Below, piece after piece: positions 5,775-48,791 of a stretch of DNA of 53,531 nucleotides. Every line of letters begins with the position of its first letter. Position 1 is the first letter of the stretch. The stretch is from a virus (lineage: Duplodnaviria > Caudoviricetes): positions 1 through 53,531 of the IMG/VR virus record IMGVR_UViG_3300004806_000031; one strand, 5' to 3'. The notes beneath the pieces are model-generated. The model ran no database searches. It was not told the origin of the DNA and was given only the letters and a program-made list of their open reading frames with translations. The position numbers and the translations under genes were made by a program.

Positions 5775-5777
5775 ACG

Positions 5778-7820: not shown

Positions 7821-8167
7821 TGGATGCATCACTTGGCGATCTTCTGACAACCCAAAAAAACGGTGTTATTGCTATTAACGCCTACACAAATGCAATTAAC
7901 ACACAGGCGGGGTCGATTAATACTAAAGAACTATCCGCATCGACGGTAATTAAATCGTCATCGGGTTGGCTTGCTACCGTTAGCGTTATTGTTGCCGGTA
8001 GTACGCAGGGTTACTTATACGACACGAACAGCACGTCGGCCACGTCAGGGAATCGCATTTACGCGGTGCCAAATACAGTTGGCGTCTATAAAGTCATGAT
8101 GCCATTTTCAACTGGTTTAACATTTGTTCCGGGGACCAGTTCAGTCATCGCGGTGGGGTATACATAA
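7820..8167 (+). CDS. Hypothetical virion protein
   Basis: TAATG coupling; beta-rich 115 aa. Confidence 0.65.
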   Translation: MDASLGDLLTTQKNGVIAINAYTNAINTQAGSINTKELSASTVIKSSSGWLATVSVIVAGSTQGYLYDTNSTSATSGNRIYAVPNTVGVYKVMMPFSTGLTFVPGTSSVIAVGYT

Positions 8168-8688: not shown

Positions 8689-8689
8689 A

Positions 8690-9259: not shown

Positions 9260-9276
9260 AGTTTAGGAGAAGGCCC

Positions 9277-12200
9277 GTGTGCGGTTCTAAAGGTACGTCC
9301 ACTACAACTTCCACTTACTCCCCTCCCGCGGGCGTTCAAGCCAATTATGACTATTTGGCTAACCAAGCGAAGCAAGTGTCGGCTACGCCTTTTCAACAAT
9401 ACACGGGCGAAATGGTTGCTGGCCTGACCCCCACGCAAGAGGCGGGGATATCTAATGTCAATGCATCGGCTGGACTAGCGCAACCATATTTTCAGGCTGG
9501 AACGGGATACGTTCAACAGGCAGCGAATCCATTTAACCAGCAATCCCTTAATCAATATATGTCGCCATACATCAATGATGTCGTGGCGCAGACAATGGCC
9601 AACTTGAACGAAACCAATGCCCAACAACAGCAACAAGTGTTGGGCAATCAAATTCAGCAAGGCGCGTTTGGCGGAGACCGCGGGAAAATCGCTCAAGCCG
9701 AGTTGGTCCGCCAGCAGAATTTAGCGAATGGCCAGACATTGGCCAACGTTCTCCAAGGCGGCTACGGCCAAGCATTGGGGCAATTTAACGCCGATCAGGC
9801 CCGCGCTTTGCAAGCCGGTTCAACTCTTGGGACATTCGGCACTCAGGCTCAGTCGGCAGCAATGCAGGGCGCTCAAGCGCAATTGTCTGCTGGCGCGCAA
9901 CAGCAAGCAGTCCAGCAAGCGCAAGACGTTGCAAATCAGCAGCAGTTCCAAGCGGCTCAGGCTTATCCGTTCCAAACAACCCAATTTTTGGGCAATATGT
10001 TGTTGGGTATTGGGGGGCAATCAGGCGGCACGGCACTTACAAGTGCGCCCGGTCCAAATATTGGGTCGCAAGTTTTGGGTGGCCTTACTACGTTGGCATC
10101 TATTCCGTGGGGGTCAGACGAACGCCTTAAAGAAAATATGGAGCCTGTCGGAAAAACCTTCGACGGACAAAATATTTACAAATTCAACTACAAGGGCGAC
10201 GGCCACACAATGCTTGGCTTAAGCGCGCAGGAAGTTGAAAAGCATAACCCAAATGCGGTTCACCGTGACGATCAAGGCATGCGTATGGTTGACTACGAGT
10301 CAGCGACACATGATGCTGCCGACAAGGGCCATTTTGCCCGCGGCGGCGTCGCTGATTGGATGGGTGGAGCAGTGCAAGAGGGATTGGGGCGCGCGCATTT
10401 TGAACTTGGCGGGATGCCATATTCAGACCAACCAACTGGCGGGTCAACAAAGCCATTGACGTTGGCCGATGTCATGCGTGTTTCAAATGCTATTCTTGCT
10501 AATAGGCCGGGCGGAAAAACTAATATTCCCCAAGCGCCAAAACCGTACGACGACACCGGAATTACAGATGTCGCAAAACAATTGGCGAATGCAACGCCAG
10601 AACAAAGAGCGAATATGAAGGCAAATATTGCCTCTATTCGCAATAATCTTGGCCTCGGCACAGTGGATGCTGCATCTATTATTGCGCCAACAAATTATCC
10701 TGATCAAACGGCAATGGGCGGTATGTACGGTCGTTTTGCGTCAGGTGGTTTGGTGGGCCGTAAAGCATACGCTGGAGATGATGGCCAATCTGGGGGCGTT
10801 TTGCCGTCCGATGGGAAAACTTTGTTCGAAAAAGCCACTGGCATGAATTTGTCTGACAATGCCCGCATGGGGCTGCTTGCTGCTGGCTTGGGTATGCTGT
10901 CTAGCCGCTCCCCATTCTTTGGCGTGGGCGTTGGTGAGGGCGCAACTGCGGGCCTTGGCACCTACTATAATGCTCTCGCCAACCAACGCGCTTATGAAAA
11001 CAAGCAGCGCGAATTGGGTTTAACAGAAGAAGAGCGTGAAATTGGACGGACACAAGCCGCCGCCTCGACGCTGAATGCTCAATCGACGGCAAAAGATGTT
11101 GCACTTAGAACCTTGGATAAAATTAAACAAAGTTACAGTTTAGGCACTGGTGACCCAATGTATCCTGATGGCCACGTCAATGGCCCATACGGGAAGCATA
11201 TGTCTTACGATGAATATCGCAAGCAAATGAGTGGAATGCTGGCCGCATCAGGGGCGTTACCCCCAGAATTAGTAAATATTTTATCCGACCCATCCCAATT
11301 AATTTCTCCTGCACCTTCCGTTGCAGGAAAGGCGTTGGGCGGTTCGGCGACAAACGCCAATCAAAGTGACGACCAATCAAACGCGAGCATTGTGGCAACT
11401 GCGCCCGCTCCAGACCAAGGGGCCGACGTAGAAAAGCCTATCCAATTGGCGCAAGCAGCGACTGGATCCTCAGCGACCGATCAGGGAGGAATGCAACCAA
11501 TTGATTATGACAAGTTGGCGCAAGATGCTTTGCGCCGTCGAGATATTGCGCGGTCGCACCCAGAATTTGCAAATTCTGACGCGGTGGCGAAGGCCGCTCA
11601 AGAAGATTACGATAAGTATTCTAAATTGTCGCCAACAATCCAAAAACAAGCGCGCGATTTAGAGGCGCAACAAAAGGCTATGGAATTGGGCATCACGCAA
11701 ATGGGTGATGTTGATAAAGGGTTGGGTGATCGTTCAGATTCACGCCCAGCCGCGCGCGCCCGCATCAACGACGCATCAAAACTTCTTTCCCTTTGGCAAT
11801 CGGGTCGCTTGAGTGACATTAAAGCGGCAGCGCCAGCGATTGCGGCGTCATTAGGCTTAGACATTAAAAACTATGCATTAAATGATGCGGCCTCGTATGA
11901 AACATTTACGAAGGACGCAACGCAAGCAATGTTTGACAAGGTTAAAGACCTTGGTGGCCGTATTTTGGTGACTGAAATTGAAGGCCAAAAACAAGCGAAT
12001 ATGAACCCCGACCTGCAACCAAAAACCAACCGCAACATTATTGGCGTTGCGAAGGGATTGATGGATGCTGAAGACAAATTCTTCGACGATTACAATACTT
12101 GGCGAGCCGGTGACGGTAAGTATGCAAACCTCGCACAATATAATGCGTGGAAGGCGGCGTGGCGCAAAGACCCCCAAAATAATTTAGATAATTTTATTGA

Positions 12201-12393
12201 TCAGGGGCGCGCCAATACTCCAGTTCGCGGCGACTTTGCTACGAATGAAAAAGAACGAAAGGCGGGATATAAGTATGTAATTCCGCCCGAAAAACTTGGC
12301 GACGAGCAACGCGCTCAATATCCAAATGGGTTGATTGCTCGTTGGACAGGTAAAGGTTGGGATCCGACGTCTTTGGAGGCTCCAGAGTTCTAA
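9277..12393 (+). CDS. Internal virion/ejection protein with internal peptidase S74-like (autocleaving chaperone) domain
   Basis: AGGAG then GTG start (MCGSKG); Q/A-rich pilot-like N-terminus; SDERLKEN...GLSAQEVE at about 10114-10300. Confidence 0.75.
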   Translation: MCGSKGTSTTTSTYSPPAGVQANYDYLANQAKQVSATPFQQYTGEMVAGLTPTQEAGISNVNASAGLAQPYFQAGTGYVQQAANPFNQQSLNQYMSPYINDVVAQTMANLNETNAQQQQQVLGNQIQQGAFGGDRGKIAQAELVRQQNLANGQTLANVLQGGYGQALGQFNADQARALQAGSTLGTFGTQAQSAAMQGAQAQLSAGAQQQAVQQAQDVANQQQFQAAQAYPFQTTQFLGNMLLGIGGQSGGTALTSAPGPNIGSQVLGGLTTLASIPWGSDERLKENMEPVGKTFDGQNIYKFNYKGDGHTMLGLSAQEVEKHNPNAVHRDDQGMRMVDYESATHDAADKGHFARGGVADWMGGAVQEGLGRAHFELGGMPYSDQPTGGSTKPLTLADVMRVSNAILANRPGGKTNIPQAPKPYDDTGITDVAKQLANATPEQRANMKANIASIRNNLGLGTVDAASIIAPTNYPDQTAMGGMYGRFASGGLVGRKAYAGDDGQSGGVLPSDGKTLFEKATGMNLSDNARMGLLAAGLGMLSSRSPFFGVGVGEGATAGLGTYYNALANQRAYENKQRELGLTEEEREIGRTQAAASTLNAQSTAKDVALRTLDKIKQSYSLGTGDPMYPDGHVNGPYGKHMSYDEYRKQMSGMLAASGALPPELVNILSDPSQLISPAPSVAGKALGGSATNANQSDDQSNASIVATAPAPDQGADVEKPIQLAQAATGSSATDQGGMQPIDYDKLAQDALRRRDIARSHPEFANSDAVAKAAQEDYDKYSKLSPTIQKQARDLEAQQKAMELGITQMGDVDKGLGDRSDSRPAARARINDASKLLSLWQSGRLSDIKAAAPAIAASLGLDIKNYALNDAASYETFTKDATQAMFDKVKDLGGRILVTEIEGQKQANMNPDLQPKTNRNIIGVAKGLMDAEDKFFDDYNTWRAGDGKYANLAQYNAWKAAWRKDPQNNLDNFIDQGRANTPVRGDFATNEKERKAGYKYVIPPEKLGDEQRAQYPNGLIARWTGKGWDPTSLEAPEF

Positions 12394-14651
12394 TGGCTAA
12401 TCAACAACAGAAAATTTTATCGGACGCTGATTTGGGTATTGTTGGGACGCCAACCCAAACAAACCAAAATGCTGCCGCGCCTCAACAGCCCACACAACCC
12501 CCAAATAAGTCTGTTTTATCTGACGCTGATTTGGGGTTGTTGTCTGCGCGGCCAGATTTGCGCCCAACTTACGATGTCCCCAAAAGCGCATTGTCTGCGG
12601 CTGAACGCATGCCAATTGGATTTGTTAATGCGCCCGCTGACATTATGAATTTTGTGTCTGACGCATTGGAAAAAGGCTTGGCAACAACTGTTGATGGCGC
12701 AATAAATCTTTACAATTCTGCCGTTGGCGACACAGACACTCCTGAAGGCAAGCGTCGTTTGGAAGTTGCCCGAGGTGCTTTGAGTAAAGCGCATGAAACA
12801 AATTTAGCGACGCGCCCCTATTCAACTTCACAAATTGCCACGGAAGTTGACCCGTATGCTCGTCAAGTGCTGCCTGTTGGACCCGCGTATCAGTCAAAAA
12901 CTGGCCCCGGACAATTTACGCAAACGGCTATTGATGTTGCTGGGCCGGGCATGTTTGGTAAAGGGAAACTTGCGACAAAATTGTTGCGCGGCGCTACTTC
13001 TGTTCTTGGGGTTGAGGCGGCGGATACTGCCGCTGACTACGCTGGCTTGACTGACCCAACAACTCGCACGGCATTGAGTATGTTGGGAGGCATTACTGGC
13101 GGCGGTGTTGGTGAAATGGCCGTGCGCGGCAAAAATGTTGTCGGCAATATTGTTGACCCAACACAGGCGGCAAATGAACGAATTGCTCAGGTTATTAAAC
13201 AAGCCAGAGAAGAAGGGCGAGCGCCAACTGACGCAGAAATTCAACAAGCACTTGCGTCAAATGCGCCGCTAACGGCTTACGATTTAGCGGGCGAGCGCAG
13301 TCCTGAACTTGTAAATCCAGCAGCCACTGGCCCAGAGCGAGACGCTCTGTTGCAAATAAATAAGGCCATTCAAGATCGTGGCGCGGCGGCATTTGGTCGT
13401 GTCAACGATGGCTTGGATAATATTCTTGGCCGCAAAGTTGACGCCGGTGAAACGCGCGCAAAAATTTCTGAGCAACAAGGTATAGACAATAAAGCAAATT
13501 ATGAAAAAGCATTAAGTGACCCTCTAGCAGCAAACATGGAATCGCCAACGGTTATGAAATTAAAGGATAACCCTTTAATTCAAGGCGCTTACAACGACGC
13601 TGTAAAAACTTTGGGTGGGTATTCCCCGTCATTAAAGTTTTGGGATCAAGTTAAGCGCAATTTGGATGACGCCAGTAATGCGGCATTTCGTCGAGGCGAG
13701 GGCAACTTGGGGTCTGATTTATCGACTGTCCGCAATCAATTGCGTGATGATCTAAAATCACAAAATCCAACTTACGCTGACGCATTGTCTGGCGCGTCTG
13801 ATTTTTTCAAAGCCAAAAATGCAGTTGATGCGGGGTATAAATACGCAAGTAAATTTAATACTTTCGACGCTGCCCAAGTGAGACAGGCTATTTCTAAATT
13901 TAGCCCAGACCAATTGGCTTTGTTTCAAGAAGGTTTTGTTAGTGCTTTGAAGGATAAAGCGCAGGGTGGTGCCGATAAACTTTTAACAGGCCTTGATAAA
14001 GCATCGTCGGTTGGGAAATTAAATGATGTGTTCCCGTCCAAAAATGGAACACAAGCGCGTCAAATCCAAAGCATGGTTGATTTGGAAAATATGACGCGCG
14101 ACGTTGACACAATTAAACTTGCCCAAAATCTTGGCGAAAGCAGTCAGGCTGGCGCTGGAAACCGCATGCTTGAATTTGCAGTTTCCGGTGCTTCTGGATT
14201 AGGTTTAGGAGCATTTCAAGGTCCAACAACAGGGACCATTGCTGCTTTAGGAACTTTCCTCGCAACGGAGGCAACGCGTGGCGTTTTAAGCGCCGCTCAA
14301 AAAAACGTGGCGCGTCAAGTTGCTGAAACATTGGCGTCTGGCGACGCTGGGAAAATTGCAGAATTGTCTAAGTTGGCCGAGACAACGCCAGCCGTAAAGA
14401 CAACACTGCAAAAACTAGAACCATTCCTCGCGCATACCGCACTGACCATGACTGGCGTTAATGCAGCCAATGCAAATCAACGCCCGCAACGCGCGTCGGG
14501 CGGGTCCGTCATCGACAAAAAGGCAGACGCTTTGGTGAGCGAATCACTCCGCAACCAAAAATTAATCGCCAATCACACAGAGCAAATGCTTTCGATGCCC
14601 GACGACGCGGTGATGCAAGCGTTACATGTAGCGCGGAGCGTGGCGGCCTAG
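12393..14651 (+). CDS. Large internal virion/ejection protein
   Basis: TAATG coupling; Ala-rich helical sequence; duplicated LSDADLG near the N-terminus; last gene of the late operon. Confidence 0.7.
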   Translation: MANQQQKILSDADLGIVGTPTQTNQNAAAPQQPTQPPNKSVLSDADLGLLSARPDLRPTYDVPKSALSAAERMPIGFVNAPADIMNFVSDALEKGLATTVDGAINLYNSAVGDTDTPEGKRRLEVARGALSKAHETNLATRPYSTSQIATEVDPYARQVLPVGPAYQSKTGPGQFTQTAIDVAGPGMFGKGKLATKLLRGATSVLGVEAADTAADYAGLTDPTTRTALSMLGGITGGGVGEMAVRGKNVVGNIVDPTQAANERIAQVIKQAREEGRAPTDAEIQQALASNAPLTAYDLAGERSPELVNPAATGPERDALLQINKAIQDRGAAAFGRVNDGLDNILGRKVDAGETRAKISEQQGIDNKANYEKALSDPLAANMESPTVMKLKDNPLIQGAYNDAVKTLGGYSPSLKFWDQVKRNLDDASNAAFRRGEGNLGSDLSTVRNQLRDDLKSQNPTYADALSGASDFFKAKNAVDAGYKYASKFNTFDAAQVRQAISKFSPDQLALFQEGFVSALKDKAQGGADKLLTGLDKASSVGKLNDVFPSKNGTQARQIQSMVDLENMTRDVDTIKLAQNLGESSQAGAGNRMLEFAVSGASGLGLGAFQGPTTGTIAALGTFLATEATRGVLSAAQKNVARQVAETLASGDAGKIAELSKLAETTPAVKTTLQKLEPFLAHTALTMTGVNAANANQRPQRASGGSVIDKKADALVSESLRNQKLIANHTEQMLSMPDDAVMQALHVARSVAA

Positions 14652-33249: not shown

Positions 33250-33265
33250 TGTTATACTGGATGCC

Positions 33266-37730: not shown

Positions 37731-37742
37731 TTGGCCTATAAT
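37714..37742 (+). promoter_or_regulatory. Sigma70 promoter for the portal/head operon
   Basis: TTGCGA-N17-TATAAT. Confidence 0.6.
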
Positions 37743-37769
37743 GCGCGGAACTTCAACAGGATACCGCAC

Positions 37770-40064
37770 ATGGCACTGACGCCCGGTCTCGTTCCAAACC
37801 TTCGTCTTGATCAAGATGAGCCTGAAAACACTCTCGGCGAGGGTCAAGACACCATTGTCATTATGGACGCCGACGAGGGCGCGGATCTGCCGGAGTTGGA
37901 TGCCGATGGAAATGTGTTACGGATTGACCACGGGGACGGCTCTATTAGCGTTTCGCTTGACGGCAACCCTATACAATCTGGCAAGAAAAATAAAAACGAG
38001 GGCTGGTTTGCTAACTTGGCCGAAGATTTAAGCGAGACAGAACTGTCATCTATTGCAGAAAAGTTAATTAGAGGAATTGAGGAAGACATTGAATCCCGCA
38101 AAGATTGGATTGAGGACCGCGCGCAAGGTTTGCGCCTTCTTGGCCTTAAAATTGAACTTCCGGGTCTCCAAGGGACGGCGGACGGCGCACCACTTGAGGG
38201 AATGTCACGCATTCGGCACCCGCTCTTGCTTGAGGCAGTGCTACGATTCCAAGCGAACGCCCGGTCAGAACTATTGCCTACGGATGGACCCGTAAAGGTA
38301 AGGGTTGACGGCAACCAAGACTCGCCAGAAGTAGATCAAATGGCGGAGTATTTGGAGCGTGATTTTAATCACTACCTGACCGCGGTGGCCAAGGAATACT
38401 ACCCAGACACCGACAAAATGCTATTTATGCTTGGTTTTGGCGGCTCATCGTTCAAAAAAGTGTATTTTTGCCCACTACGCAACCGCCCGGTGTCTGAAAC
38501 GGTCGATGCGGACGATTTAATTGTCAATAATGAGGCCACAGACCTGTCAAATGCCCGCCGAGTGACCCACAAAATCTCAATGAGGCCGTCTGTCGTCAAA
38601 CGCATGCAGATTATTGGCGCTTACCGTGACGTTGACCTTGGCTCGGCCAAGGAAAAAGACCTAAATGCGGTCGAAAAAGAAAAAAATGCCATTGGCGGCG
38701 TCGAGGGAGACGTCCGCGACGTTGAAGATCGTGACCGCGAAATTTACGAATGCTACTGCGAACTGGATATTTTGGGATTTGAGCATAAAATTGACGGCGA
38801 GGAGACAGGTTTAGAAGTCCCCTACCGCGTAACCATCGACGCCTCGTCCAAAAAAGTGCTAAATATTGTCAGAAATTACAAAGAAGAAGAACAAGATTTG
38901 CCTGAGGCGCTTGTTCACTTTGTAAAATTTGATTTTGTGCCGGGATTGAAGTTTTACGGCATGGGATTGCTCCATATTTTGGGCAATACGACCAATGCAC
39001 TGACCGCGGCGTGGCGCGAATTGCTTGACGCTGGCATGTACGCCAATTTCCCCGGCTTTTTGTATGCCAAGGCGGCTGGGCGTCAGAATACTAACATATT
39101 CCGTGTGCCTCCGGGCGGCGGCGCTCAAGTGGACACGGCTGGCATGCCCATCCAACAGGCCGTTATGCCGTTGCCATACAAGGAGCCGTCCGCGGCATTG
39201 GGCGCGTTGGCGGAAAACATTAGCCAATACGGCCAGCGGGTCGGCGGCACGTCTGAATTGCAAGTGGGCGAGGGAAAGTCTGACGCGCCGGTCGGGACAA
39301 CTTTGGCCATTATTGAGCAAGCGCAAAAGGTTTTGAACAGCGTCCACAAGCGTCTGCATGCGGCTCAGGCGGACGAATTTCAATTGCTGGCGCAGTGTTT
39401 CCGTGACCACCCAGAATCATTCTGGCAACGCAACAAGCGGCCAGCAACGCAGTGGGATGAGAAAATATTCCTTGATGCGTTGGAAAATTATGAATTGGTT
39501 CCCCAAGCCGACCCAAATACGGCCAGCCACATTCAGCGGGTGATGAAAGTCACGGCCTTGATCCAGTTGGCGCAGCAAGCGCCTGATCTTTATAACCTTG
39601 ATGCTGTAAACCGCGAGGCATTGCTGACCCTTGGTTGGGCAAACCCGTCATCGTTGTTGCGTGACACCGTTAACCAGCCCGCCCCGCCTGACCCGCAAGC
39701 AATGGCCGCGCAAACTGCGGCGCAAGCGGCCATGATCACCGCACAGTCAAAGATGACTGAGGCTCAGGTCAAGGTTCAGGAGTTGCAAAACAAGACCGGG
39801 GGCGGCCAAGGCATGGCCCCAGAGGATCAGGTCAAGTTGGCCGAAATCCAGCAGAAGAACATCGACGCGCAATTGGATGCCACGAACCGCAAGCGCGACC
39901 GCGAGAGCCGTGAGCGGCTGGCTGCAATGAAGTTTGCGGAGGAAATGGCGGAGAATCCGTCTGGTTTGGCTATTGCTCGCCAATTGATTGACCCCGGCAT
40001 GTTACAGAGACTTGAAGGAAACGAACCAGAAATGTCTCCCACGCCCGGCGGCGTCATCCAGTAG
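37770..40064 (+). CDS. Portal protein
   Basis: HPLLLEAVLRFQA, GSSFKKVY, FYGMGL.H.LG and APVGTTLA motifs; follows terL. Confidence 0.9.
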   Translation: MALTPGLVPNLRLDQDEPENTLGEGQDTIVIMDADEGADLPELDADGNVLRIDHGDGSISVSLDGNPIQSGKKNKNEGWFANLAEDLSETELSSIAEKLIRGIEEDIESRKDWIEDRAQGLRLLGLKIELPGLQGTADGAPLEGMSRIRHPLLLEAVLRFQANARSELLPTDGPVKVRVDGNQDSPEVDQMAEYLERDFNHYLTAVAKEYYPDTDKMLFMLGFGGSSFKKVYFCPLRNRPVSETVDADDLIVNNEATDLSNARRVTHKISMRPSVVKRMQIIGAYRDVDLGSAKEKDLNAVEKEKNAIGGVEGDVRDVEDRDREIYECYCELDILGFEHKIDGEETGLEVPYRVTIDASSKKVLNIVRNYKEEEQDLPEALVHFVKFDFVPGLKFYGMGLLHILGNTTNALTAAWRELLDAGMYANFPGFLYAKAAGRQNTNIFRVPPGGGAQVDTAGMPIQQAVMPLPYKEPSAALGALAENISQYGQRVGGTSELQVGEGKSDAPVGTTLAIIEQAQKVLNSVHKRLHAAQADEFQLLAQCFRDHPESFWQRNKRPATQWDEKIFLDALENYELVPQADPNTASHIQRVMKVTALIQLAQQAPDLYNLDAVNREALLTLGWANPSSLLRDTVNQPAPPDPQAMAAQTAAQAAMITAQSKMTEAQVKVQELQNKTGGGQGMAPEDQVKLAEIQQKNIDAQLDATNRKRDRESRERLAAMKFAEEMAENPSGLAIARQLIDPGMLQRLEGNEPEMSPTPGGVIQ

Positions 40065-40071
40065 GTGAGTT

Positions 40072-41841
40072 ATGGCAAATAAACCCAAAACAATAGGCAA
40101 GAGGACTGGATACGCTACTCTTGGCGGGGTTCCTTTGTCAGAAGATGAAGCGTTGGAATTTAACCAAAATTTGGTTTCTGGTTACGACCCAATGGCTGAA
40201 GCCATTACCCATGCACTGCGTTCAGCCCGCAAGCACTTTGATGATGGCGGCGGCGCTGAGGGCGGCGGCGAAGGTGAGAGCGAAAGCAACCAAACCGACC
40301 GGTCAGAGGCTGCGGCTAATGCTGATATGGCGGCATCGCAATCTATTGCTAACGCAACAGAAAACAACTCCCGCGCTGACAGTTTAGCAGAATCACAGCA
40401 AGCCACAGCAGATCGGCAAGCAGAAGCATACAATCAAGATGTTGGCCGGTTCTCTTTTGGCAACAACATCAATACCGGAGCGGCTTCTGATTTTGGGCTA
40501 ACCAGCAACGCATCGCCTCAAACCATATCGGAATACACTGAACAAAGATTAAATACCCCCTATCAAGGGACGCTGCAAAACGCGGTCATGTTTCCCGGCG
40601 ATGCTTTTGGCATGTCCTACCCCGGTCTGGTGGGAAAGCAAAACACGGCGGCTGGCGCTGCTGGATTTTTGGGAAGCCTTATGGGGGAAAGCGGTAAAAC
40701 GTTGGACCCGTCAGCCATCAACGGCCCGTCTATTGGCATTGCGCAAGAAACAGGGCCACGGGCTGCGGCCCTCAAAGAGGCCCTTGGAATTGACCCAAGT
40801 TTGACGGGAAACGCGTTGCGCGATGCCTTGGCTGGTACGCAAATGGCCCAAATGGGTTTTGCCCTAAATGAGGTTAACGCCCCCGCGTATGGCCCAACTG
40901 CTCGCGCTATGGCAACTGGCACAAACCCTGCTGATGTGGCCGATATTGTTACGCAAAATTTTGAACGCCCATCATTGGAAAACCTGATTTCGTCCGCGCC
41001 AATGCGTGAGGCATACGCCCAAAGTATTATGTCGGGCAAACCATCCGCGGCCACAATGCAGCCGGGTGCTTATGATGTCGCGCCAGCAAGCGTTATGGCG
41101 GCCCTGCAAAGCGGGGTAAAAATGGCAGACACGCAAAGCCAAAATGCGCCGCGGCAAATTGCAAACGATGCGCAATTGGTTGGCGGGACAGCCAGTGATG
41201 CGGTCAATGACCCCGCAGTTACAGCCGCTATGAAAGCGGCGCAATCAGCGAACGCAACAACAGACCCATACGCGGCATTAATGAGTTTGCCCGGATATGG
41301 ATCGGAAGACCCCTCTCAAATTGCGGCATTTAATCGGGCCGCAGCCGCAGAACTTGGCCAATCTATTGGGCCGCAAAGTGCTATGGGAGTTCTCGCCGCC
41401 GGGCAACGGACGCCACAAACAAATACATTTATGGGCGGCCTGAGCGGCGCGTTGGAAAATTTATTTGCGCCAAAATTTGTTGGCGTGAACGATCCCAATT
41501 ACGCTAAAATGGCTTCGCAAAAGGACGTTGAATTTACGCCCGGCCCACAAAACGACCACACCCCAGTGTATGTGCCACCAATTGCCGGAACAACCGCAGC
41601 CGCGGTAACTCCAACAACATACCCAGCGTATGTCCCGCCAACTTACAATTACACTCAAAACCAGCCGTATAAGTCTTTGGGGGCGACGGCCTATAATTAT
41701 GGCGCAAATCCCCTAACTTACCAAAACGCTATAGATTGGAGCAGGATCCCCGGTTATGGGGCGGCATCCGGTGGGGCAATTAGCAATAACAATGCCTTAT
41801 CCAACGCTTTGCGTATGCTTCGGGGTGGGAACAAAGAATGA
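40072..41841 (+). CDS. Internal virion protein with phage tail lysozyme-like domain
   Basis: AAGFLGSLMGESG..DP.A...SIGIAQ..G.R...Q..F...E....FERP pattern. Confidence 0.7.
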   Translation: MANKPKTIGKRTGYATLGGVPLSEDEALEFNQNLVSGYDPMAEAITHALRSARKHFDDGGGAEGGGEGESESNQTDRSEAAANADMAASQSIANATENNSRADSLAESQQATADRQAEAYNQDVGRFSFGNNINTGAASDFGLTSNASPQTISEYTEQRLNTPYQGTLQNAVMFPGDAFGMSYPGLVGKQNTAAGAAGFLGSLMGESGKTLDPSAINGPSIGIAQETGPRAAALKEALGIDPSLTGNALRDALAGTQMAQMGFALNEVNAPAYGPTARAMATGTNPADVADIVTQNFERPSLENLISSAPMREAYAQSIMSGKPSAATMQPGAYDVAPASVMAALQSGVKMADTQSQNAPRQIANDAQLVGGTASDAVNDPAVTAAMKAAQSANATTDPYAALMSLPGYGSEDPSQIAAFNRAAAAELGQSIGPQSAMGVLAAGQRTPQTNTFMGGLSGALENLFAPKFVGVNDPNYAKMASQKDVEFTPGPQNDHTPVYVPPIAGTTAAAVTPTTYPAYVPPTYNYTQNQPYKSLGATAYNYGANPLTYQNAIDWSRIPGYGAASGGAISNNNALSNALRMLRGGNKE

Positions 41842-41919: not shown

Positions 41920-43311
41920 ATGCATGAGTACCTTAAAGCGGCCCGCGACGGAGCGGCAAAGAAACTGAAAGCCATTGAATCTGGCGAGCCGCACACGAAA
42001 GTCGATTCGTCTTCGTGGTCCCCGCCCGAAGCAGAGGGTTCTCAAAAGCAAACGGGTATGCGCCCCGTCAGCCCACGCCAATACAAGTCTGGCGGCAAAG
42101 TGCATGGCACAATGGCCAAGAAGCGCGCAGACCGCAAGGCCCGCAAAGACGGCGGGAAGGCAATGCCACCAGTAGATCGCTTTATTAACCGCGACATGAA
42201 AAAGGCTAATGATCTTCGCGAGGGCGAAAAACACGTCGGCGGCATGAAGAAGGGTGGCCGGATCAAGCGCGAGCATCACGCTGATGGCGACGCTGTGGGT
42301 GATTTGATTCGTCAGGACCAAATTCAGCAAGGAATGAAGGGCCGCGGCCTCCCGATGCGCGCGCCGCTTCCGCCCCGTCGCCCGATGCCAGCGCCTCGGT
42401 ATATGCCAGACACCAATTTGACGACGCAGGGCGCAAAGCGTGGCGGCAAAATTGCTCACCCCGATGAGGCCGCTGACAAGGCGCTGATTAAGAAGATGGT
42501 TAAGCCAGAAGCCCGCACCGGCAAGAAAGACGGCGGCGGCGAAAAATGGATTCAGGGCGCAATCAAGCACCCCGGCTCTCTTCATAAGGCACTGCATGTC
42601 CCGGCTGGGGAAAAGATTCCCGCCAAGAAATTGGAAAAGGCCGCACACAGCGACAATCCAAAATTGGCTAAAAAGGCTAATTTGGCCAAAACGTTGAAGC
42701 GCATGCACCACGCTGATGGTGGCGCTACTGAAGCGCAACGCGTTGGTGCGAATTCTTCAAAGTTTTATAAAGAAGGTAATAAACCTGCTGTTCAATCAAC
42801 AAAATCATCAGATTTTGATGCAATGCGTAATGCTGACCGTAATTTAACCACTGCTTTAGAACAGCAAGGGTATAAAAAAGGTGGTCGTATTAAACACGCA
42901 TCTGGCGGTGAAACTGGCCGCGGCCTGTATGTCCGCAAGGGCTACCCGCACGAAGTTCCGGGCGCTGACGGTGGCCGCACGGCTAAGAAGCGCGGCGGAT
43001 CCATTGGCAAGGGCAAGACGAACGTGAACATTATGATTCACCCGCACAACCCTAATATGGCCATGAATCCTCCAATGCCAGCGGGCGCTAACATTCCTCC
43101 TCCGCCCCGCCCTGTTTCATTGCCTCCAATGGGCAGCGCGCCAATGGCCGCTCCAATGGCCGCACCGGCAATGCCCCCAATGGGCGCGGCTCGTCCGGGC
43201 ATGCCCCCAATGGGCCGCAAGGATGGCGGCAAGGTTGAGCATGTGATTGATCACGCGGCGGGCGGTGGATTAGGCCGCATGGAAAAGATTAAAGCATACG
43301 GCCTCAAATAA
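41920..43311 (+). CDS. Basic, low-complexity protein built from GG-delimited modules
   Basis: About 12 xx[AK]xGG motifs; K/R/H-rich; Pro/Met-rich segment. Confidence 0.8.
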   Translation: MHEYLKAARDGAAKKLKAIESGEPHTKVDSSSWSPPEAEGSQKQTGMRPVSPRQYKSGGKVHGTMAKKRADRKARKDGGKAMPPVDRFINRDMKKANDLREGEKHVGGMKKGGRIKREHHADGDAVGDLIRQDQIQQGMKGRGLPMRAPLPPRRPMPAPRYMPDTNLTTQGAKRGGKIAHPDEAADKALIKKMVKPEARTGKKDGGGEKWIQGAIKHPGSLHKALHVPAGEKIPAKKLEKAAHSDNPKLAKKANLAKTLKRMHHADGGATEAQRVGANSSKFYKEGNKPAVQSTKSSDFDAMRNADRNLTTALEQQGYKKGGRIKHASGGETGRGLYVRKGYPHEVPGADGGRTAKKRGGSIGKGKTNVNIMIHPHNPNMAMNPPMPAGANIPPPPRPVSLPPMGSAPMAAPMAAPAMPPMGAARPGMPPMGRKDGGKVEHVIDHAAGGGLGRMEKIKAYGLK

Positions 43312-43584: not shown

Positions 43585-43977
43585 ATGCCGTATACGCGCA
43601 TGCACCATGACGTTGAACCCAAAGATGCCATTTTAAGTGAACTTGGCGACATTAGCGGCATTGAGATTTTCAATACGCATGTCCTTGTCGCGACATATGT
43701 TCGCCCCAACAAGACCAAGAGCGGCATTCACCTGACCGACAAGTATGTCGATGAGGACAAGTATCAAGGCAAAGTTGGCCTTGTAGTCAAGAAGGGGCCG
43801 CTGGCTTTCATTGACGAGGACCAAGACTGGTTCAGGGGTGTTGAAGTCAATTTGGGCGACTGGGTTGTTTACCGCCCGTCCGACGGCTGGTCGATGAATG
43901 TGCATGGCGTCCAGTGCCGTGTGTTGCGTGACATAGACATTCGCGGTCGCATTCCGGCCCCGGATGCGGTTTGGTAA
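43585..43977 (+). CDS. GroES/Cpn10-like co-chaperonin
   Basis: VLV....KTKSGIHL......GKVGLVVKKGP.....V.LGDWV....G......CRVLRD.DI. Confidence 0.8.
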   Translation: MPYTRMHHDVEPKDAILSELGDISGIEIFNTHVLVATYVRPNKTKSGIHLTDKYVDEDKYQGKVGLVVKKGPLAFIDEDQDWFRGVEVNLGDWVVYRPSDGWSMNVHGVQCRVLRDIDIRGRIPAPDAVW

Positions 43978-43991
43978 AGGAATTGTTTCAC

Positions 43992-44897
43992 ATGGAACAG
44001 GAAGAAAATCAGGTTCAAGACGACGTGACCATTTTGGATGATGCTCCAGATGAGGCCGTCAATGAGAACAAAACGGAAACAAAAGTTGCGGCAAATGATT
44101 CGCAATCGCCAGAAGACGGCATTGCGGAACTAAAAGAGCGCCTTGAAGAAGAGCGGCGCATGCGTCTGGAGGCAGAGCAGCGCGCGCATCAGGCCCAGCA
44201 GACAGCGACCAAGGCCACGGCTGAGGTTCAAGATAGCAATCTGCAACTGATTAACAGTGCAATTGATAAACTGAAACGCGAATCAGACTACTCAAAAACG
44301 CGTTACCGGGATGCATTGGCTTCGGGCGATTATGACACTGCCGCCCAAATCCAAGAGGCAATGTCGATCAATGCAGCCAAGATGTTGCAACTTCAAAACG
44401 GCAAGACGGCCCTTGAAGAGAAGTTAAAGAACCCGCCCCCGCCGCCTCCGCCAGTAAATGCTGACGTTGTTGAGCAGATTGCATCGCAATTGTCGCCACG
44501 CTCCGCGGCTTGGGTGAGGGCTAATCCTGACGTTGTGCGGGATAAAAGTCGGTATGACGACATGGTTCGGGCGCATAATCACGCCATTGGCGAGGGCCAC
44601 GTTCCTGACTCAGACGCGTATTTCCAACACATCGAAATGCGTTTGGGCAAGAGAAAGCCACAGCCGGTCGTTGATGACGGTGAGGACGTTGCTTTGTCAG
44701 CCGCCTCTGCGCCAACTCAAAAGAGAACTGCGCCAGCCGCCGCGCCAACCACACGCACTGCGTCTGGGACGGGCAATAAGCAAAACGTCGTCCGTTTAAC
44801 GTCAGAAATGCGTGAGATTGCATCTATGATGGGCATGTCGCCCGAAGATTACGCCAAAAACATGGTCGCCCTTCGCAAAGAAGGCAAACTTAACTAA
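43992..44897 (+). CDS. Capsid scaffolding protein
   Basis: Acidic N-terminus, long coiled coil and C-terminal VRLT..MREIA..MGMSPEDYAK; precedes the capsid genes. Confidence 0.75.
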   Translation: MEQEENQVQDDVTILDDAPDEAVNENKTETKVAANDSQSPEDGIAELKERLEEERRMRLEAEQRAHQAQQTATKATAEVQDSNLQLINSAIDKLKRESDYSKTRYRDALASGDYDTAAQIQEAMSINAAKMLQLQNGKTALEEKLKNPPPPPPPVNADVVEQIASQLSPRSAAWVRANPDVVRDKSRYDDMVRAHNHAIGEGHVPDSDAYFQHIEMRLGKRKPQPVVDDGEDVALSAASAPTQKRTAPAAAPTTRTASGTGNKQNVVRLTSEMREIASMMGMSPEDYAKNMVALRKEGKLN

Positions 44898-46203: not shown

Positions 46204-47118
46204 ATGGCTGTTAATCTTTCGCAGATCAAAGACCTTCTCCTCCCCGGTCTCCGTGGTGTTGAAGGCAAGTACGAGATGATTTCATCTCAGTACGACAAAA
46301 TCTTCACAAAGCATGATTCGAAGATGGCTCTCGAACGTACCGCAGAAATGCGCTACCTCGGCCTCGCGCAGTTGAAGACCGAAGGTGGTCAGACTGCATT
46401 CGATTCGGGCGCTGGTGAGCGTTTTGTGTACAACCAAGAGCATACTGAAATTGCTCTGGGTTACGCGATTACCCGTAAGGCTATCGACGATAACCTCTAC
46501 AAGACTCAGTTCATGCCGTCGAACCTTGGCTTGGTGGAATCATTCCAGCAGACCAAAGAAATCTATGGCGCGAATATCCTTAACACGGCCCAAACGTACA
46601 ATGCTTCGGTTGGCGGTGACGGCGTGGCACTCTGCTCCACGTCACATCCTATCGACGGCGGTACGGTCGCTAACACGCCATCAACGCAACTTGACCTCAA
46701 CGAAGCCTCGCTGCTCAACAGCATGATTGCTGTCCGCACGAACTTCCGCGATCAAGCCAACTTGAAAGTGTTCGCTCGCGCTCGCAAACTCATCGTTCCA
46801 CCTCAGTTGGAGCCAGTCGCGATCCGTCTCACGAAGACTGAATTGCGTCCGGGTACAGCAGACAACGATGTCAATGCGATCATGATGACGGCGGGTGGTC
46901 TTAGCGAAGGCTACATGGTCAACGACTTCTTGACCTCGGCTTACGCTTGGTTCTTGCTCACCAACATCGACGGCCTTGCTTACATGGAACGCATCAAGTT
47001 TGAGACCGACATGCAAGTCGATTTCGTGACTGATAACCTCCTTGTTAAGGGCTACGAGCGTTATTCGTTCGGCTATTACAACTGGCGCGCGATCTACGGC
47101 TCGTTCCCAACCTCGTAA
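46204..47118 (+). CDS. Major capsid protein (Mu gpT-like)
   Basis: LLPGL, K.EG, ALGY.IT..AIDDNLY, DGVAL.S.SHP, KLIVPP.L and ERYSFG motifs; strong codon bias. Confidence 0.92.
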   Translation: MAVNLSQIKDLLLPGLRGVEGKYEMISSQYDKIFTKHDSKMALERTAEMRYLGLAQLKTEGGQTAFDSGAGERFVYNQEHTEIALGYAITRKAIDDNLYKTQFMPSNLGLVESFQQTKEIYGANILNTAQTYNASVGGDGVALCSTSHPIDGGTVANTPSTQLDLNEASLLNSMIAVRTNFRDQANLKVFARARKLIVPPQLEPVAIRLTKTELRPGTADNDVNAIMMTAGGLSEGYMVNDFLTSAYAWFLLTNIDGLAYMERIKFETDMQVDFVTDNLLVKGYERYSFGYYNWRAIYGSFPTS

Positions 47119-48377: not shown

Positions 48378-48791
48378 ATGAAGAAGGCATCTAAGTCTGA
48401 ACAAGACGGTACGCACGGCGAAAAGTATGCCGATGCTGCTGTTAAAGACGTGTACGCTGGTGGCAACTCGCCAACAGAACACGAAGCACAAGAGCGTAAG
48501 CATGGTGGTCGCGCCAAGCGTAAACATGGTGGTCATGTTGCACATCACAGCATGAAGCACAAAGAGCATCACCATGAGCATCCAAAGGCTGAACATCGCG
48601 CAAAGCGTAAGCGCGGTGGTCACGTCATGCATGCTGAACACGCAGTGCATGGCGAACACGCCAAGCATCGTGCAGACCGTAAGGCCCGCAAGTCGGGTGG
48701 TGAAGTTGGTGCGAACATGCACCCGCTCTCCACGGCGGCCAAGGGCATTGAGCCAAAGGCTCACAAGTCTTACGAGCCTGAACACGATTAA
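48378..48791 (+). CDS. His/Lys-rich protein with four RKxGG motifs
   Basis: RKHGG x2, RKRGG and RKSGG. Confidence 0.75.
   Translation: MKKASKSEQDGTHGEKYADAAVKDVYAGGNSPTEHEAQERKHGGRAKRKHGGHVAHHSMKHKEHHHEHPKAEHRAKRKRGGHVMHAEHAVHGEHAKHRADRKARKSGGEVGANMHPLSTAAKGIEPKAHKSYEPEHD

What the first reader, a model, noticed from the sequence alone, without database searches (positions are those of the whole stretch)
41920..43311. Shared xx[AK]xGG peptide code across six virion-module proteins
Seen: this 463-aa basic protein is punctuated by YKSGG, RKDGG, MKKGG, HADGD, AKRGG, KKDGG, HADGG, YKKGG, HASGG, KKRGG and RKDGG, often followed by x[VIA]. The motif recurs in otherwise dissimilar proteins: 48378 (RKHGG x2, RKRGG, RKSGG), 40072 (FDDGG, AASGG), 8167 (KKQGG), 9277 (FARGG, FELGG, FASGG, KALGG) and 12393 (RASGG). 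I did not see this motif class recurring in capsid, terminase or replication proteins. 41920 and 48378 also share AKxRADRKARKxGG. Established: adenovirus and ASFV proteases cut after GG, and lambda gpH carries FATGG/YATGG in its C-terminal region. Inference: this is a genome-wide tag that marks internal proteins either for cleavage into peptides or for docking into the procapsid. No conventional prohead protease was recognised.
Basis: partly seen in the sequence, partly recalled or inferred. Interest (0 to 1): 0.85.

Follow-up and report, generated by a model that had tools for sequence, protein, structure and literature searches.

The report
Glycine-pair box marking internal phage proteins
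A short, strongly conserved "aromatic/basic – Ala/Lys – x – Gly – Gly" box sits in the floppy linkers of the proteins this phage carries inside its particle, and the same box lies exactly where phage T5 cuts its tape-measure protein, so it is most likely a processing or release mark rather than a chance pattern.

Summary
The motif is real. In a 63-protein gene set, the strict box [FYHKRM][AK]xGG occurs 23 times. Twenty hits lie in five proteins: 41920 (10), 48378 (4), 9277 (3), 12393 (2) and 8167 (1). Composition-matched shuffles give 0.59 for 41920 and 0.18 for 48378. 40072 does not fit the strict box.

The GG pairs are invariant in orthologues whose surrounding sequence cannot be aligned. 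Portal, capsid, scaffold, GroES-like and tail families show no enrichment.

The box lies in disordered linkers. It often sits 20-60 residues from a protein end, next to a terminal amphipathic helix.

The same box with a following beta-hairpin unit is conserved in tape-measure proteins, including lambda gpH. T5 pb2 is cut after R1127, inside its RAEGG box (PMC10038345).

No protease was found in the window, as in lambda and T5, where the cutting enzyme is also unknown. My best reading is a processing or release box delimiting modules of ejected proteins (about 0.4). A non-cleaved docking motif is the main rival (about 0.25). All function is inferred; no virion proteomics exists for this clade.

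The parts
41920..43311 (+). P0001: a 463-aa basic (pI 10.3), mostly disordered protein carrying an array of boxes. Strict boxes start at aa 55, 75, 109, 202, 264, 318, 326, 356, 433 and 445, plus AKRGG at aa 172.
   Evidence: AF2 mean pLDDT is 50.7, with 274 of 463 residues under 50. More than 1925 homologues were found.
42082..42258 (+). The three N-terminal boxes: YKSGG, RKDGG (preceded by the shared KRADRKARK stretch) and MKKGG. Their GG pairs are invariant, or in one case nearly so.
   Evidence: G58, G59, G78, G79 and G112 are invariant and G113 is at least 90% conserved in 29 sequences.
42523..42723 (+). The only confidently folded piece of P0001, a small helical module at aa 207-265. It is bracketed by KKDGG (aa 202-206) and HADGG (aa 264-268).
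   Evidence: (pLDDT 77-84). It has a weak, sub-threshold Pfam hit to Fusello_VP2 (E 0.01).
43216..43308 (+). C-terminal cassette of P0001: the RKDGG box followed by a conserved tail (..HVIDHAAGGGLGR.EKIKAYGL).
   Evidence: (R433, G436, G437, G448, G450, R453 and K456 invariant).
48378..48791 (+). A His-rich (16% His) basic 137-aa protein with four RK.GG boxes at aa 40, 48, 77 and 104. The last box follows the HRADRKARK stretch shared with P0001.
8167..8688 (+). A 173-aa internal-protein candidate. It has an N-terminal helical hairpin (aa 1-44, phrog_2423) that ends in the KKQGG box (aa 41-45). It then has two beta-beta-alpha-alpha repeats in which ..PAGSYVIP.. and ..AAGGEYVIP.. form hairpin turns.
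   Evidence: E 7e-14; G44 and G45 invariant; AF2 pLDDT 73.5; 5520 representatives.
9277..12393 (+). A 1038-aa DNA-ejection-type protein. Boxes are FARGG (aa 353, directly after a Peptidase_S74 domain at aa 280-329), FASGG (aa 487) and KALGG (aa 685).
12393..14651 (+). A 752-aa internal-protein candidate with a C-terminal cassette: the RASGG box (aa 700-704) followed by a helix ending ..LSMPDDAVMQALHVARSVAA.
   Evidence: (14 of the 18 invariant columns lie in the last 50 aa).
40072..41841 (+). A 589-aa post-portal protein with a Phage_lysozyme2 domain (aa 186-320). It has loose terminal cassettes: N-terminal ..DPMAEAITHALRSARKHFDDGGG and C-terminal ..AASGGAISNNNALSNALRML...
   Evidence: It has no strict box. 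Its relatives carry 2-5 strict boxes.
37731..40064 (+). Portal protein (context). No box enrichment.
   Evidence: 5 observed vs 5.6 expected in 53 sequences.
43585..43977 (+). GroES-like protein (context). It lies downstream of P0001, separated by a ~70-aa ORF.
   Evidence: A homologue is present in 67 of the 81 loci in the BLAST set; its position there was not tabulated.
43971..44897 (+). Scaffold-like protein (context). It has no GG at all. Its C-terminal helix-turn-helix resembles the 12393 tail helix.
46204..47118 (+). Major capsid protein (context). No box. It is at least 90% identical across the 12 related loci aligned.

Best explanation
The box is a specific linker element that marks module boundaries in proteins carried inside the virion and expelled at infection. 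Its form is aromatic or basic residue, then Ala or Lys, then any residue, then Gly-Gly, usually followed by any residue and Val/Ile/Ala.

It most likely works as a proteolytic processing or release site, cut just before the Ala/Lys as in T5 pb2.

In the large ejection-type proteins it separates a terminal amphipathic 'anchor' helix from the body. The order is helix-box-body at N-termini and body-box-helix at C-termini. The helix could hold the protein in the assembling particle, and cutting or hinging at the box would free the body for ejection.

In P0001 and the His-rich 48378 protein the box is arrayed 4-13 times. Processing would turn them into a set of small basic peptides and one ~60-aa helical module that travel with the DNA.

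The protease is not encoded recognisably. It would be a host enzyme or an unrecognised virion domain.

What is shown: the motif, its conservation, its restriction to these families, its position in disordered linkers and near termini, and its identity with the box at the T5 cut. What is inferred: that these proteins are in the virion, that the box is cut in this phage, and the anchor role of the helices.
For: 1. Selection acts on the box itself. The GG pairs are invariant while their flanks carry large indels or cannot be aligned:
- P0001 family, 29 sequences.
- 8167 family, 16 sequences.
- 9277 family, 15 rows.
- 12393 family, 11 sequences at 17-57% identity, where 14 of 18 invariant columns lie in the last 50 aa.
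- Ala and Lys swap at position -2 in orthologous sites (RASGG / RKSGG).

2. Family restriction across relatives, observed vs shuffle-expected:
- Enriched: P0001 511/37.5, His-rich 33/1.6, 8167 24/1.8, post-portal 28/3.1, 752-aa 10/1.4, 1038-aa 30/7.4.
- Not enriched: portal 5/5.6, capsid 0/1.4, scaffold 2/1.0, GroES-like 0/0.9, adaptor and tail families 0.

3. Accessibility. Most P0001 boxes fall in segments with pLDDT under 50; the rest sit at their edges. Two boxes bracket the only folded module.

4. Terminal placement. Of 180 boxes in large ORFs, 68 lie within 60 aa of an end, against 29.8 expected. The helix always lies on the terminal side of the box.

5. Modules bounded by the box exist elsewhere as separate genes. 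The 8167 N-terminal module (phrog_2423) is a stand-alone 48-aa ORF in Pseudomonas phage O4 and a 44-aa ORF in Enterobacter phage phiEap-2. Both end where the box would start.

6. Direct precedent in T5. pb2 is cut after R1127 (PMC10038345, passage in section 9). In the T5 record that is ..FVPR|AEGGMMYPG... pb2 has only two strict boxes in 1219 aa, so a chance coincidence is about 1%.

7. [quoted passage not shown] HFATGG lies in that region, and a cut before A736 gives 79.9 + 12.3 kDa.

8. The box-unit-box arrangement is conserved in tape-measure proteins of lambda, Tls, Vibrio phage Pel, Pseudomonas phage Cruim01 and phage A110b. The lambda segment matches 1044 phage records by tblastn. The same arrangement is at the N-terminus of F116-like phiC725A gp53, next to an 'internal virion polymerase'.

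9. A host protease trimming an ejection protein has a precedent. The RefSeq note on P22 gp7 says its N-terminal 20 aa are removed by host OpdA, which would leave ..SYPE|KGGKGG...
Against: - No protease family was detected in 50 window proteins by Pfam or in 24 by PHROGs.
- There are no proteomic or N-terminal data for this phage or any cultured close relative. Among cultured or catalogued phages, P0001 matches only one metagenome-derived record.
- The T5 link rests on one mapped site and a 5-residue resemblance. hhalign finds no similarity between the 8167 family and pb2C, and only a weak 27-column match to lambda gpH (E 0.018, probability 2.6%).
- T7 and P22 ejection proteins and the HK97 tape measure lack the box, so it is not general to ejected proteins.
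- Residue -3, which would be P1, ranges over F, Y, H, K, R and M. That is unusual for a single protease.
- In the folded 8167 repeats a box-like AAGGEY is simply a hairpin turn, so GG may be structural.
- Counts across relatives are inflated by shared ancestry.
Confidence: 0.4

Rival explanations
1. The box is a non-cleaved docking or packaging motif. The box, with its neighbouring terminal helix, binds a repeated site in the assembling particle (scaffold, capsid interior or portal) and recruits cargo. The arrays in P0001 and 48378 would give avidity.
For: - Terminal cassettes sit on proteins with unrelated bodies.
- Box copy number varies, with gains inside insertions, as in multivalent linear motifs.
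- The 12393 tail helix resembles the scaffold-like protein's C-terminal helix-turn-helix.
- In P22, scaffold is necessary for ejection-protein incorporation and portal is not (PMC8402733, passages).
Against: - The same box is conserved in tape-measure proteins, which assemble in tails and not in procapsids.
- The scaffold-like protein has the helix but no GG at all, so the box is not needed for that contact.
- No partner has been identified.
Confidence: 0.25
2. The box is a structural hinge or beta-turn. The GG turn, flanked by residues that favour beta strands, nucleates hairpins. These let unfolded proteins thread the channel and refold, or pack against the neighbouring beta-hairpin unit. 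No cutting or dedicated partner is involved.
For: - In the 8167 model..IVAAGGEYVI.. and ..HVPAGSYVI.. are hairpins with the glycines at the turn, in regions of pLDDT 83-94.
- Boxes lie 17-45 aa upstream of such units in 84 of the 150 best representatives; in 28 more the only upstream match is a GG inside the unit signature itself.
- The same arrangement is seen in tape-measure proteins.
Against: - Isolated boxes in P0001 and 48378 have no adjacent unit and are predicted to be disordered.
- A generic turn would not need Ala/Lys at -2 and an aromatic or basic residue at -3.
- T5 does cut there.
Confidence: 0.15
3. The boxes are DNA- or metal-binding repeats. The Lys/Arg- and His-rich boxes of P0001 and 48378 would bind packaged DNA or metal ions, like internal histone-like proteins.
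For: - P0001 has pI 10.3 and 48378 has pI 9.75 with 16% His.
- P0001 has a Met/Pro-rich region near its C-terminus.
- Its helical module has a weak hit to the fusellovirus DNA-binding VP2 family (E 0.01, below the cutoff).
Against: - Orthologous sites swap Lys for Ala.
- The Ala-type boxes (FASGGLV, YADGGIV) are uncharged.
- The invariant part is GG, not the charges.
Confidence: 0.1
4. The pattern is a compositional accident of Gly- and Lys-rich low-complexity sequence.
For: - P0001 is 13% Gly and 19% Lys+Arg.
- In-window counts for 8167, 12393 and 40072 are individually weak.
Against: - 0 of 2000 composition-matched shuffles reach the observed count in 41920 or 48378.
- The GG pairs are invariant across highly diverged orthologues.
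- Much more Gly-rich fibre proteins show no excess of the loose pattern at 61-1290 (4 vs 3.7), though 1807-3000 has a modest one (5 vs 2.0, p 0.05).
Confidence: 0.02

Closest known systems
Tape-measure protein C-terminal processing (T5 pb2 to pb2* + pb2C; lambda gpH to gpH* + gpHC)
   Same: - These are ejected, largely unfolded proteins.
- The same box is present: T5 ..PR|AEGG.., and lambda HFATGG and GYATGG.
- The box is followed by a ..PAG.VH.GEFVF.. hairpin unit that resembles the 8167 repeats.
- The cut separates a C-terminal piece that stays bound in the particle.
- The protease is unknown.
Sources; PMC10038345; PMC12617516.
   Different: - Those are tail-lumen proteins of siphoviruses with one or two boxes. 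Here the carriers are podovirus internal proteins, and two of them carry arrays of 4-13 boxes.
- Sequence homology beyond the box and unit is weak or undetectable.
- Cleavage in this phage is untested.
Adenovirus and ASFV maturation sites cut after Gly-Gly by clan CE cysteine proteases (consensus recalled from memory: hydrophobic-x-G-G|x)
   Same: A Gly-Gly-centred tag recurs in several core or internal virion proteins. Precursors have both ends trimmed, and small basic DNA-associated peptides are produced.
   Different: - No clan CE or other protease is detected.
- Position -2 is Ala/Lys, not Met/Leu/Ile.
- The only mapped cut at this box (T5) is three residues before GG, not after it.
T4 capsid targeting sequence on internal proteins (recalled; cited in the reference list of PMC8402733)
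   Same: A short terminal peptide directs cargo into the prohead and is then removed at a defined motif. This is the same anchor-then-release logic.
   Different: - T4 uses an N-terminal tag cut by the prohead protease at a different motif.
- Here the cassettes are at either end and no prohead protease is present.
P22 ejection proteins gp7, gp16 and gp20
   Same: - Internal proteins are recruited into procapsids through scaffold, not portal (PMC8402733).
- gp7 loses 20 N-terminal residues to the host protease OpdA, next to a K-G-G-K-G-G stretch.
   Different: - P22 ejection proteins lack the strict box.
- There are no arrays and no terminal helix-plus-box cassette.
Encapsulin cargo-loading peptides (recalled)
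   Same: Short Gly-rich C-terminal peptides dock cargo onto the inside of an HK97-fold shell. P0001's invariant tail is Gly-rich and C-terminal.
   Different: No binding was shown here. The resemblance is recalled from memory and untested.
PHROG family phrog_2423 (function unknown)
   Same: 8167 aa 1-44 matches it at E 7e-14. The family is the helical hairpin that ends at the box.
   Different: In phages O4 and phiEap-2 it is a free 44-48-aa protein without GG. Here it is fused through the box to a larger domain.

Membership tests
Tape-measure-type processing box (T5 pb2 / lambda gpH) | A box of the form [basic/aromatic][A/K]xGG lies at the mapped cleavage position | tested here: met
   T5 is cut after R1127 (PMC10038345), which is R|AEGG in NC_005859. 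The window proteins carry the same box.
Tape-measure-type processing box (T5 pb2 / lambda gpH) | The box is followed by a ..PAG.V..GE[FY]V.. hairpin unit | tested here: inconclusive
   The unit is present in 8167 (two copies), phiC725A gp53 and five tape-measure proteins. hhalign of 8167 against gpH gives only E 0.018 and probability 2.6%. There is no unit next to the P0001 or 48378 boxes.
Tape-measure-type processing box (T5 pb2 / lambda gpH) | The protein is actually cleaved at the box during assembly | not testable with these tools
   This needs virion mass spectrometry. No cultured close relative is available.
Adenain / ASFV pS273R-type GG|x sites | A clan CE cysteine protease is encoded by the virus | tested here: not met
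   There is no protease family in the Pfam scans of 50 window proteins. Small ORFs under ~105 aa were mostly not scanned.
Adenain / ASFV pS273R-type GG|x sites | A hydrophobic Met/Leu/Ile lies two residues before GG (recalled consensus) | tested here: not met
   At that position, Lys is 45% and Ala 20% of 1993 GG sites in 121 family members.
T4-type capsid targeting sequence | A prohead protease removes the tag | tested here: not met
   No prohead protease was found by PHROGs or Pfam. The 44910 family has no catalytic-looking invariant residues.
Scaffold- or capsid-docking peptide | The cassette binds capsid or scaffold | not testable with these tools
   No binding evidence was obtained; see Tried and rejected.
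Double-glycine bacteriocin leader (C39 peptidase substrates) | An N-terminal leader ending in GG, plus a C39 peptidase/ABC exporter nearby | tested here: not met
   The boxes are internal and repeated. No C39 peptidase or ABC transporter is in the window.
phrog_2423 | A significant profile match over most of the 52-position model | tested here: met
   8167 aa 1-44 matches model positions 1-44 of 52 at E 7e-14.

The most novel reading that the evidence does not exclude
A single, so far undescribed processing box, cut as [basic/aromatic]|[A/K]xGG, is shared by proteins that leave the virion through the tail channel in both siphoviruses and a large uncultured podovirus clade. A host enzyme, or an unrecognised virion-borne one, does the cutting.

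This would explain the 50-year-old unmapped lambda gpH to gpH* cleavage (predicted at F735|A736) and the T5 pb2 cut. In this clade it would turn P0001 and the His-rich protein into about ten small basic internal peptides, and would release ejection proteins from terminal anchor helices.
Probability: 0.3. Interest if true: 0.8.

Novelty: new variant of a known kind. Interest (0 to 1): 0.66.

Why it matters
How internal and ejection proteins are loaded into phage particles, and later freed for ejection, is poorly understood outside T4 and P22. How lambda and T5 cut their tape-measure proteins is explicitly described as unknown (PMC12617516).

A five-residue box links three things:
- the one mapped T5 site;
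- the Gly-rich cleavage region of lambda gpH;
- thousands of uncultured podovirus internal proteins.

This gives a concrete prediction that can be tested by mutation in lambda or T5. It also gives a sequence handle for recognising internal or ejected cargo proteins in metagenomic phage genomes, where these are usually 'hypothetical'. If the terminal cassettes prove to be loading signals, they could be used to load foreign proteins into capsids.

Tried and rejected
**Complex prediction.** I submitted capsid protein (alignment A4) with the 12393 C-terminal cassette (A5, aa 690-752). The result was 'no answer', score 0.00 against a mark of 0.32, and the controls were not run. This is neither for nor against binding. 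Only this one pair was tried. Portal, scaffold, 8167 and P0001 peptides were not tried because the cap is one job.

**Fold of the 8167 protein.**
- Foldseek against the PDB gave no match at E <= 0.001.
- The VIA wide search gave best Z 5.0, and only on the N-terminal hairpin.
- BFVD returned only uncharacterised phage proteins.
- I considered 8167 as a metallopeptidase that cuts the boxes. H53, D66, H67, E126, H146 and D150 are over 90% conserved in 112 representatives. However, that set was picked by a pattern containing part of these residues, F116-like gp53 lacks the histidines, and there is no fold match. I left it as a lead.

**A universal tag of ejected proteins.** Rejected: T7 gp14-16, P22 gp7/16/20 and the HK97 tape measure have no strict box.

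**Mimicry of the co-chaperonin mobile loop.** I considered this from memory because a GroES-like gene lies just downstream of P0001. I did not test it. Most boxes lack the hydrophobic run such a loop needs.

**The 44910 family as a hidden protease.** It has no Ser/His/Cys/Asp set among its invariant residues and no PDB sequence relatives.

**Sequence searches of the PDB** with the P0001 and capsid profiles found nothing.

**Literature.** Searches for the motif as printed letters and for tape measure + cleavage site + Gly-Gly found nothing relevant. These three searches are the only basis for saying I found no description in print, and subscription journals are not covered.

**Supplements are closed.** I did not see T5 fig. 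S5G or table S3. The R1127 site comes from the main text only.

**Papers.**
- For PMC10721106, PMC12617516, PMC10038345, its bioRxiv version and PMC8402733, I saw only the passages returned by 'find'.
- For Zweig & Cummings 1973 and Hendrix & Casjens 1974, I saw only titles in reference lists.

**Method limits.**
- ORFs in related loci were called mechanically (first ATG/GTG/TTG to stop), so distances to N-termini are approximate.
- The 68 'post-portal' ORFs include at least one terminase ORF from loci without a portal.
- Counts over relatives are not independent events.
Full report
**What the window is.** It is an IMG/VR virus record of 53,531 bases, linear and about 92% complete. Its architecture is podovirus-like:
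- large terminase at 34891-36585;
- portal at 37731-40064;
- GroES-like protein at 43585-43977;
- scaffold-like protein at 43971-44897;
- major capsid protein at 46204-47118;
- SU10-type adaptor at 5058-5774;
- a DNA-ejection-type protein at 9277-12393.

The nearest catalogued record is a metagenome-derived Caudoviricetes genome, MW202675. More distant portal relatives are pelagiphage HTVC023P-type, roseophage CRP-901/902 and Caulobacter phages.

**The observation.** 41920-43311 encodes a 463-aa protein, P0001, with pI 10.3.

The loose pattern [AK]xGG occurs 13 times against 1.9 in composition-matched shuffles, and 0 of 500 shuffles reach that count. A stricter pattern, [FYHKRM][AK]xGG, was derived from the site statistics of 121 family members. 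Among their 1993 GG sites, Lys is 45% and Ala 20% at -2, and K/R/H/M/Y dominate at -3.

The strict pattern gives 23 hits in my 63-protein gene set:
- 41920: 10
- 48378: 4
- 9277: 3
- 12393: 2
- 8167: 1
- one each in a Gly-rich fibre, the terminase and the 47131 protein.

Shuffles expect 0.59, 0.18, 0.44, 0.19 and 0.08 for the five carriers. The other 57 proteins together give 3 observed against 2.15 expected. 40072 has no strict hit. Inside the window only two proteins are individually beyond doubt. The strict pattern was chosen after seeing the data.

**Conservation.** This is the independent test.
- **P0001.** It has at least 1925 metagenomic homologues among the 8000 candidates scored. In a 29-sequence alignment, identity outside the N-terminal 120 residues is low and there are long indels. 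Even so, the glycines at 58, 59, 78, 79, 112, 359, 360, 436 and 437 are invariant. Insertions bring extra boxes with them. Family members carry 7-16 loose boxes, most often 11-12.
- **48378.** In this family (the window plus 8 distinct sequences), most of the RK.GG boxes and the RADR..RK.GG stretch shared with P0001 are kept throughout. The box at aa 77 lies in a segment missing from 4 of the 8 relatives.
- **8167.** G44 and G45 are invariant in the 16 sequences aligned in A2. They lie between an N-terminal hairpin and the C-domain.
- **9277.** GHFA.GG directly follows the S74 domain in all 15 rows but one, which reads GHFSLGG. [YF][AS].GG[LV][VI] survives, with a few variants, inside an otherwise unalignable linker.
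- **12393.** The body is 17-57% identical across 11 sequences, yet 14 of the 18 invariant columns lie in the last 50 residues, including the GG pair. Ala and Lys alternate at -2 (RASGG, RKSGG, RKHGG), which shows that the 'Ala-type' and 'Lys-type' boxes are one motif.

**Restriction to certain families.** I called ORFs in 80 loci around P0001 homologues (497 of 598 candidate stretches confirmed), in the MW202675 stretch (L001) and in 24 loci around 9277 homologues. I assigned the ORFs to window proteins by BLAST. Box counts against shuffles were as follows:

| Family | Observed | Expected |
|---|---|---|
| P0001 | 511 | 37.5 |
| His-rich (48378) | 33 | 1.6 |
| 8167 | 24 | 1.8 |
| post-portal lysozyme-domain | 28 | 3.1 |
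| 752-aa (12393) | 10 | 1.4 |
| 1038-aa (9277) | 30 | 7.4 |
| GNAT-like (8690) | 5 | 0.7 |
| terminase | 11 | 2.2 |
| 411-aa (47131) | 5 | 1.3 |
| portal | 5 | 5.6 |
| capsid | 0 | 1.4 |
| scaffold | 2 | 1.0 |
| GroES-like | 0 | 0.9 |

The terminase count comes from one conserved folded site. The adaptor and the 274/320/244-aa tail-region families have 0. These counts repeat inherited sites, so they show which families keep the box, not how many independent events occurred.

**Anatomy.**
- **P0001 structure.** It is predicted to be mostly disordered. AF2 with the alignment gives mean pLDDT 50.7, with 274 of 463 residues under 50. The Atlas model has pLDDT 0.46. The only confident piece is a helical module at aa 207-265, bracketed by KKDGG (202-206) and HADGG (264-268).
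- **Position in large proteins.** In the large proteins encoded between portal and the P0001 homologue, 52 of 68 distinct ORFs of at least 250 aa carry one or more boxes. That set includes at least one terminase ORF from loci without a portal.
- **Bias towards ends.** Of 180 boxes in large ORFs, 68 lie within 60 residues of an end against 29.8 expected. Of these, 49 are at the C-terminal end.
- **C-terminal cassettes.** These read body, then [FY]A.GG.V(D), then an amphipathic helix (..D.AL....LP..DA[VI]..A..RR). I found 106 distinct tails.
- **N-terminal cassettes.** These are the mirror image: helix (..DP.KA[VI]R.A..[VI]AKH), then FA.GG, then body.
- **Window examples**:
  - 8167 N-terminus (..NPHDQAVAAALNIARSGKKQGG);
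  - 40072 N-terminus (..DPMAEAITHALRSARKHFDDGGG);
  - 40072 C-terminus (..AASGGAISNNNALSNALRML..);
  - 12393 C-terminus (RASGG...LSMPDDAVMQALHVARSVAA).
- **Scaffold.** The scaffold-like protein ends in a similar helix (..GMSPEDYAKNMVALRKEG..) but has no GG anywhere.

**The 8167 protein and the link to tape-measure proteins.**
- 8167 aa 1-44 is PHROG family phrog_2423 (E 7e-14). In Pseudomonas phage O4 (gp21, 48 aa) and Enterobacter phage phiEap-2 (44 aa) this module is a free small protein. It stops where the box would begin.
- The C-domain of 8167 is two beta-beta-alpha-alpha repeats (AF2 pLDDT 73.5) whose hairpins read ..HVPAGSYVIP.. and ..VAAGGEYVIP...
- A profile of the family finds 5520 representatives at E <= 0.001 in 1.84 billion cluster representatives. 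The domain is usually C-terminal to variable extensions. In 112 of the best 150 a strict-pattern match lies upstream of the domain. In 84 it is a separate box, typically 17-45 residues upstream; in the other 28 the only match is a GG four residues upstream, inside the domain's own signature.
- A cultured example is F116-like phage phiC725A gp53. Its N-terminus reads RFADGG, unit, unit, FFADGG, and it lies next to a 'putative internal virion polymerase'.
- Lambda gpH has the same layout: HFATGG, then ..PAGIVHRGEFVFTKEATSRIGVGNL.., then GYATGG.
- The gpH segment matches 1044 phage records by tblastn. In the four diverged tape-measure proteins I read (Tls, Vibrio phage Pel, Pseudomonas phage Cruim01, phage A110b) both boxes and the unit are kept: F[AS].GGYTG.GGK..P.G.VH.GE.V.. 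then GYA.GG.VG.
- The statistical link between 8167 and gpH is weak: 27 columns, 41% identity, E 0.018, probability 2.6%. I treat common descent as likely for the box-unit arrangement but not proven.

**Why I favour processing.**
- **T5.** T5 pb2 is cut 'after R1127' (PMC10038345, section 9, passage). In the T5 record the residues are ..FVPR1127|AEGGMMYPG... The cut falls inside a box, between positions -3 and -2. pb2 has two strict boxes in 1219 residues, so a chance hit is about 1%.
- **Lambda.** PMC12617516 (passages) states four things:
  - the C-fragment stays in the tail tip;
  - the precise site is unknown;
  - how cleavage is catalysed is unknown.
  By the T5 rule, a cut before A736 gives 79.9 and 12.3 kDa. 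This is compatible with the report but not diagnostic.
[quoted passage not shown] I saw the title only.
- **P22.** The RefSeq note on P22 gp7 says host OpdA removes its first 20 residues. By my count that leaves ..SYPE|KGGKGG... Host-enzyme trimming of ejected proteins therefore has a precedent.
- **Absence of a protease gene.** Because lambda and T5 also lack an identified enzyme, the absence of a recognisable protease here is not decisive against cleavage.
- **Fit with the layout.** Two features fit an anchor-then-release scheme: the helix-box-body and body-box-helix layout, and the existence of box-bounded modules as free genes. If P0001 were cut at all ten strict boxes it would give pieces of 8 to 93 residues.

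**What speaks against it.**
- There are no proteomic data for the clade.
- There is only one mapped precedent.
- The residue that would be P1 is heterogeneous.
- Box-like sequences act as plain hairpin turns in a folded domain.
- T7, P22 and the HK97 tape measure lack the box.
- A docking role for the cassettes remains reasonable, given that P22 ejection proteins need scaffold and not portal for incorporation (PMC8402733, passages). The two roles could also coexist.
- My single complex-prediction job gave no verdict and is reported only under Tried and rejected.

The closest known system is the tape-measure C-terminal processing of T5 and lambda, whose site logic and enzyme are themselves unresolved. 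I rate this a new variant of a known kind (a virion-protein processing or targeting motif). Confidence is about 0.4 in processing and about 0.25 in pure docking.

Noticed in passing
window 10114-10263 (9277 protein aa 280-329): A Peptidase_S74 intramolecular-chaperone domain (E 3.2e-7) sits in the middle of a 1038-aa ejection-type protein, not at a fibre C-terminus. The S-D-E-R..K-E-N start is conserved in 14 orthologues, with the invariant GHFA.GG box directly after it. This suggests that a Gln/Gly-rich N-terminal ~275-aa part is released by self-cleavage.
   Followed up: partly
window 46204-47118 vs 41920-43311, and loci L013-L081: The capsid protein is 90-99% identical across the 12 related loci aligned, while the neighbouring P0001 homologues fall to 35-50% identity. 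This is a very uneven rate of change within one head module.
   Followed up: no
window 43585-43977: A phage-encoded GroES-like protein (Cpn10 E 1.7e-7; phrog co-chaperonin E 3.7e-11) lies between P0001 and the scaffold gene. A homologue is present in 67 of 81 related loci.
   Followed up: partly
window 48842-49084: An 80-aa basic ORF matches the extreme C-terminal ~80 residues of eight PHROG families of very different lengths (99 to 928 positions, E down to 2e-31). This is another free-standing version of a module that is a terminal domain elsewhere.
   Followed up: no
window 8317-8685 (8167 aa 51-173) and P0122-P0271: In 112 representatives of the 8167 superfamily, H53, D66, H67, E126, H146 and D150 are over 90% conserved (the GRTDH and GH..LD motifs). 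This hints at a metal or catalytic site. No PDB fold match was found, and F116-like gp53 lacks the histidines.
   Followed up: partly
window 51798-53531 and 1-1290: The ORF running off the 3' end (578 codons, in frame to the last base) and the ORF open at the 5' end (429 codons from base 1) are both Gly-rich fibre-like. If the record were circularised they would join in frame into a fibre of about 1007 aa.
   Followed up: no
window 28105-28731 vs 34891-36585: An Sf6-type small terminase (E 3.9e-26) lies about 6 kb upstream of the large terminase. Small unknown ORFs and an HNH endonuclease (33071-33769) lie between them. A second HNH is at 15073-15429.
   Followed up: no
L001 (MW202675) 4316-11813: In the nearest catalogued genome, the slot between portal and the P0001 homologue holds three large proteins annotated peptidase M15, hypothetical and 'type I restriction enzyme'. 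They carry 5, 2 and 1 boxes. This slot appears to be a polymorphic cargo position.
   Followed up: partly
L109 (HK97) 13834-14442: The HK97 gpI-like tail protein carries two boxes (FAAGG, YAFGG), while the HK97 tape measure has none.
   Followed up: no
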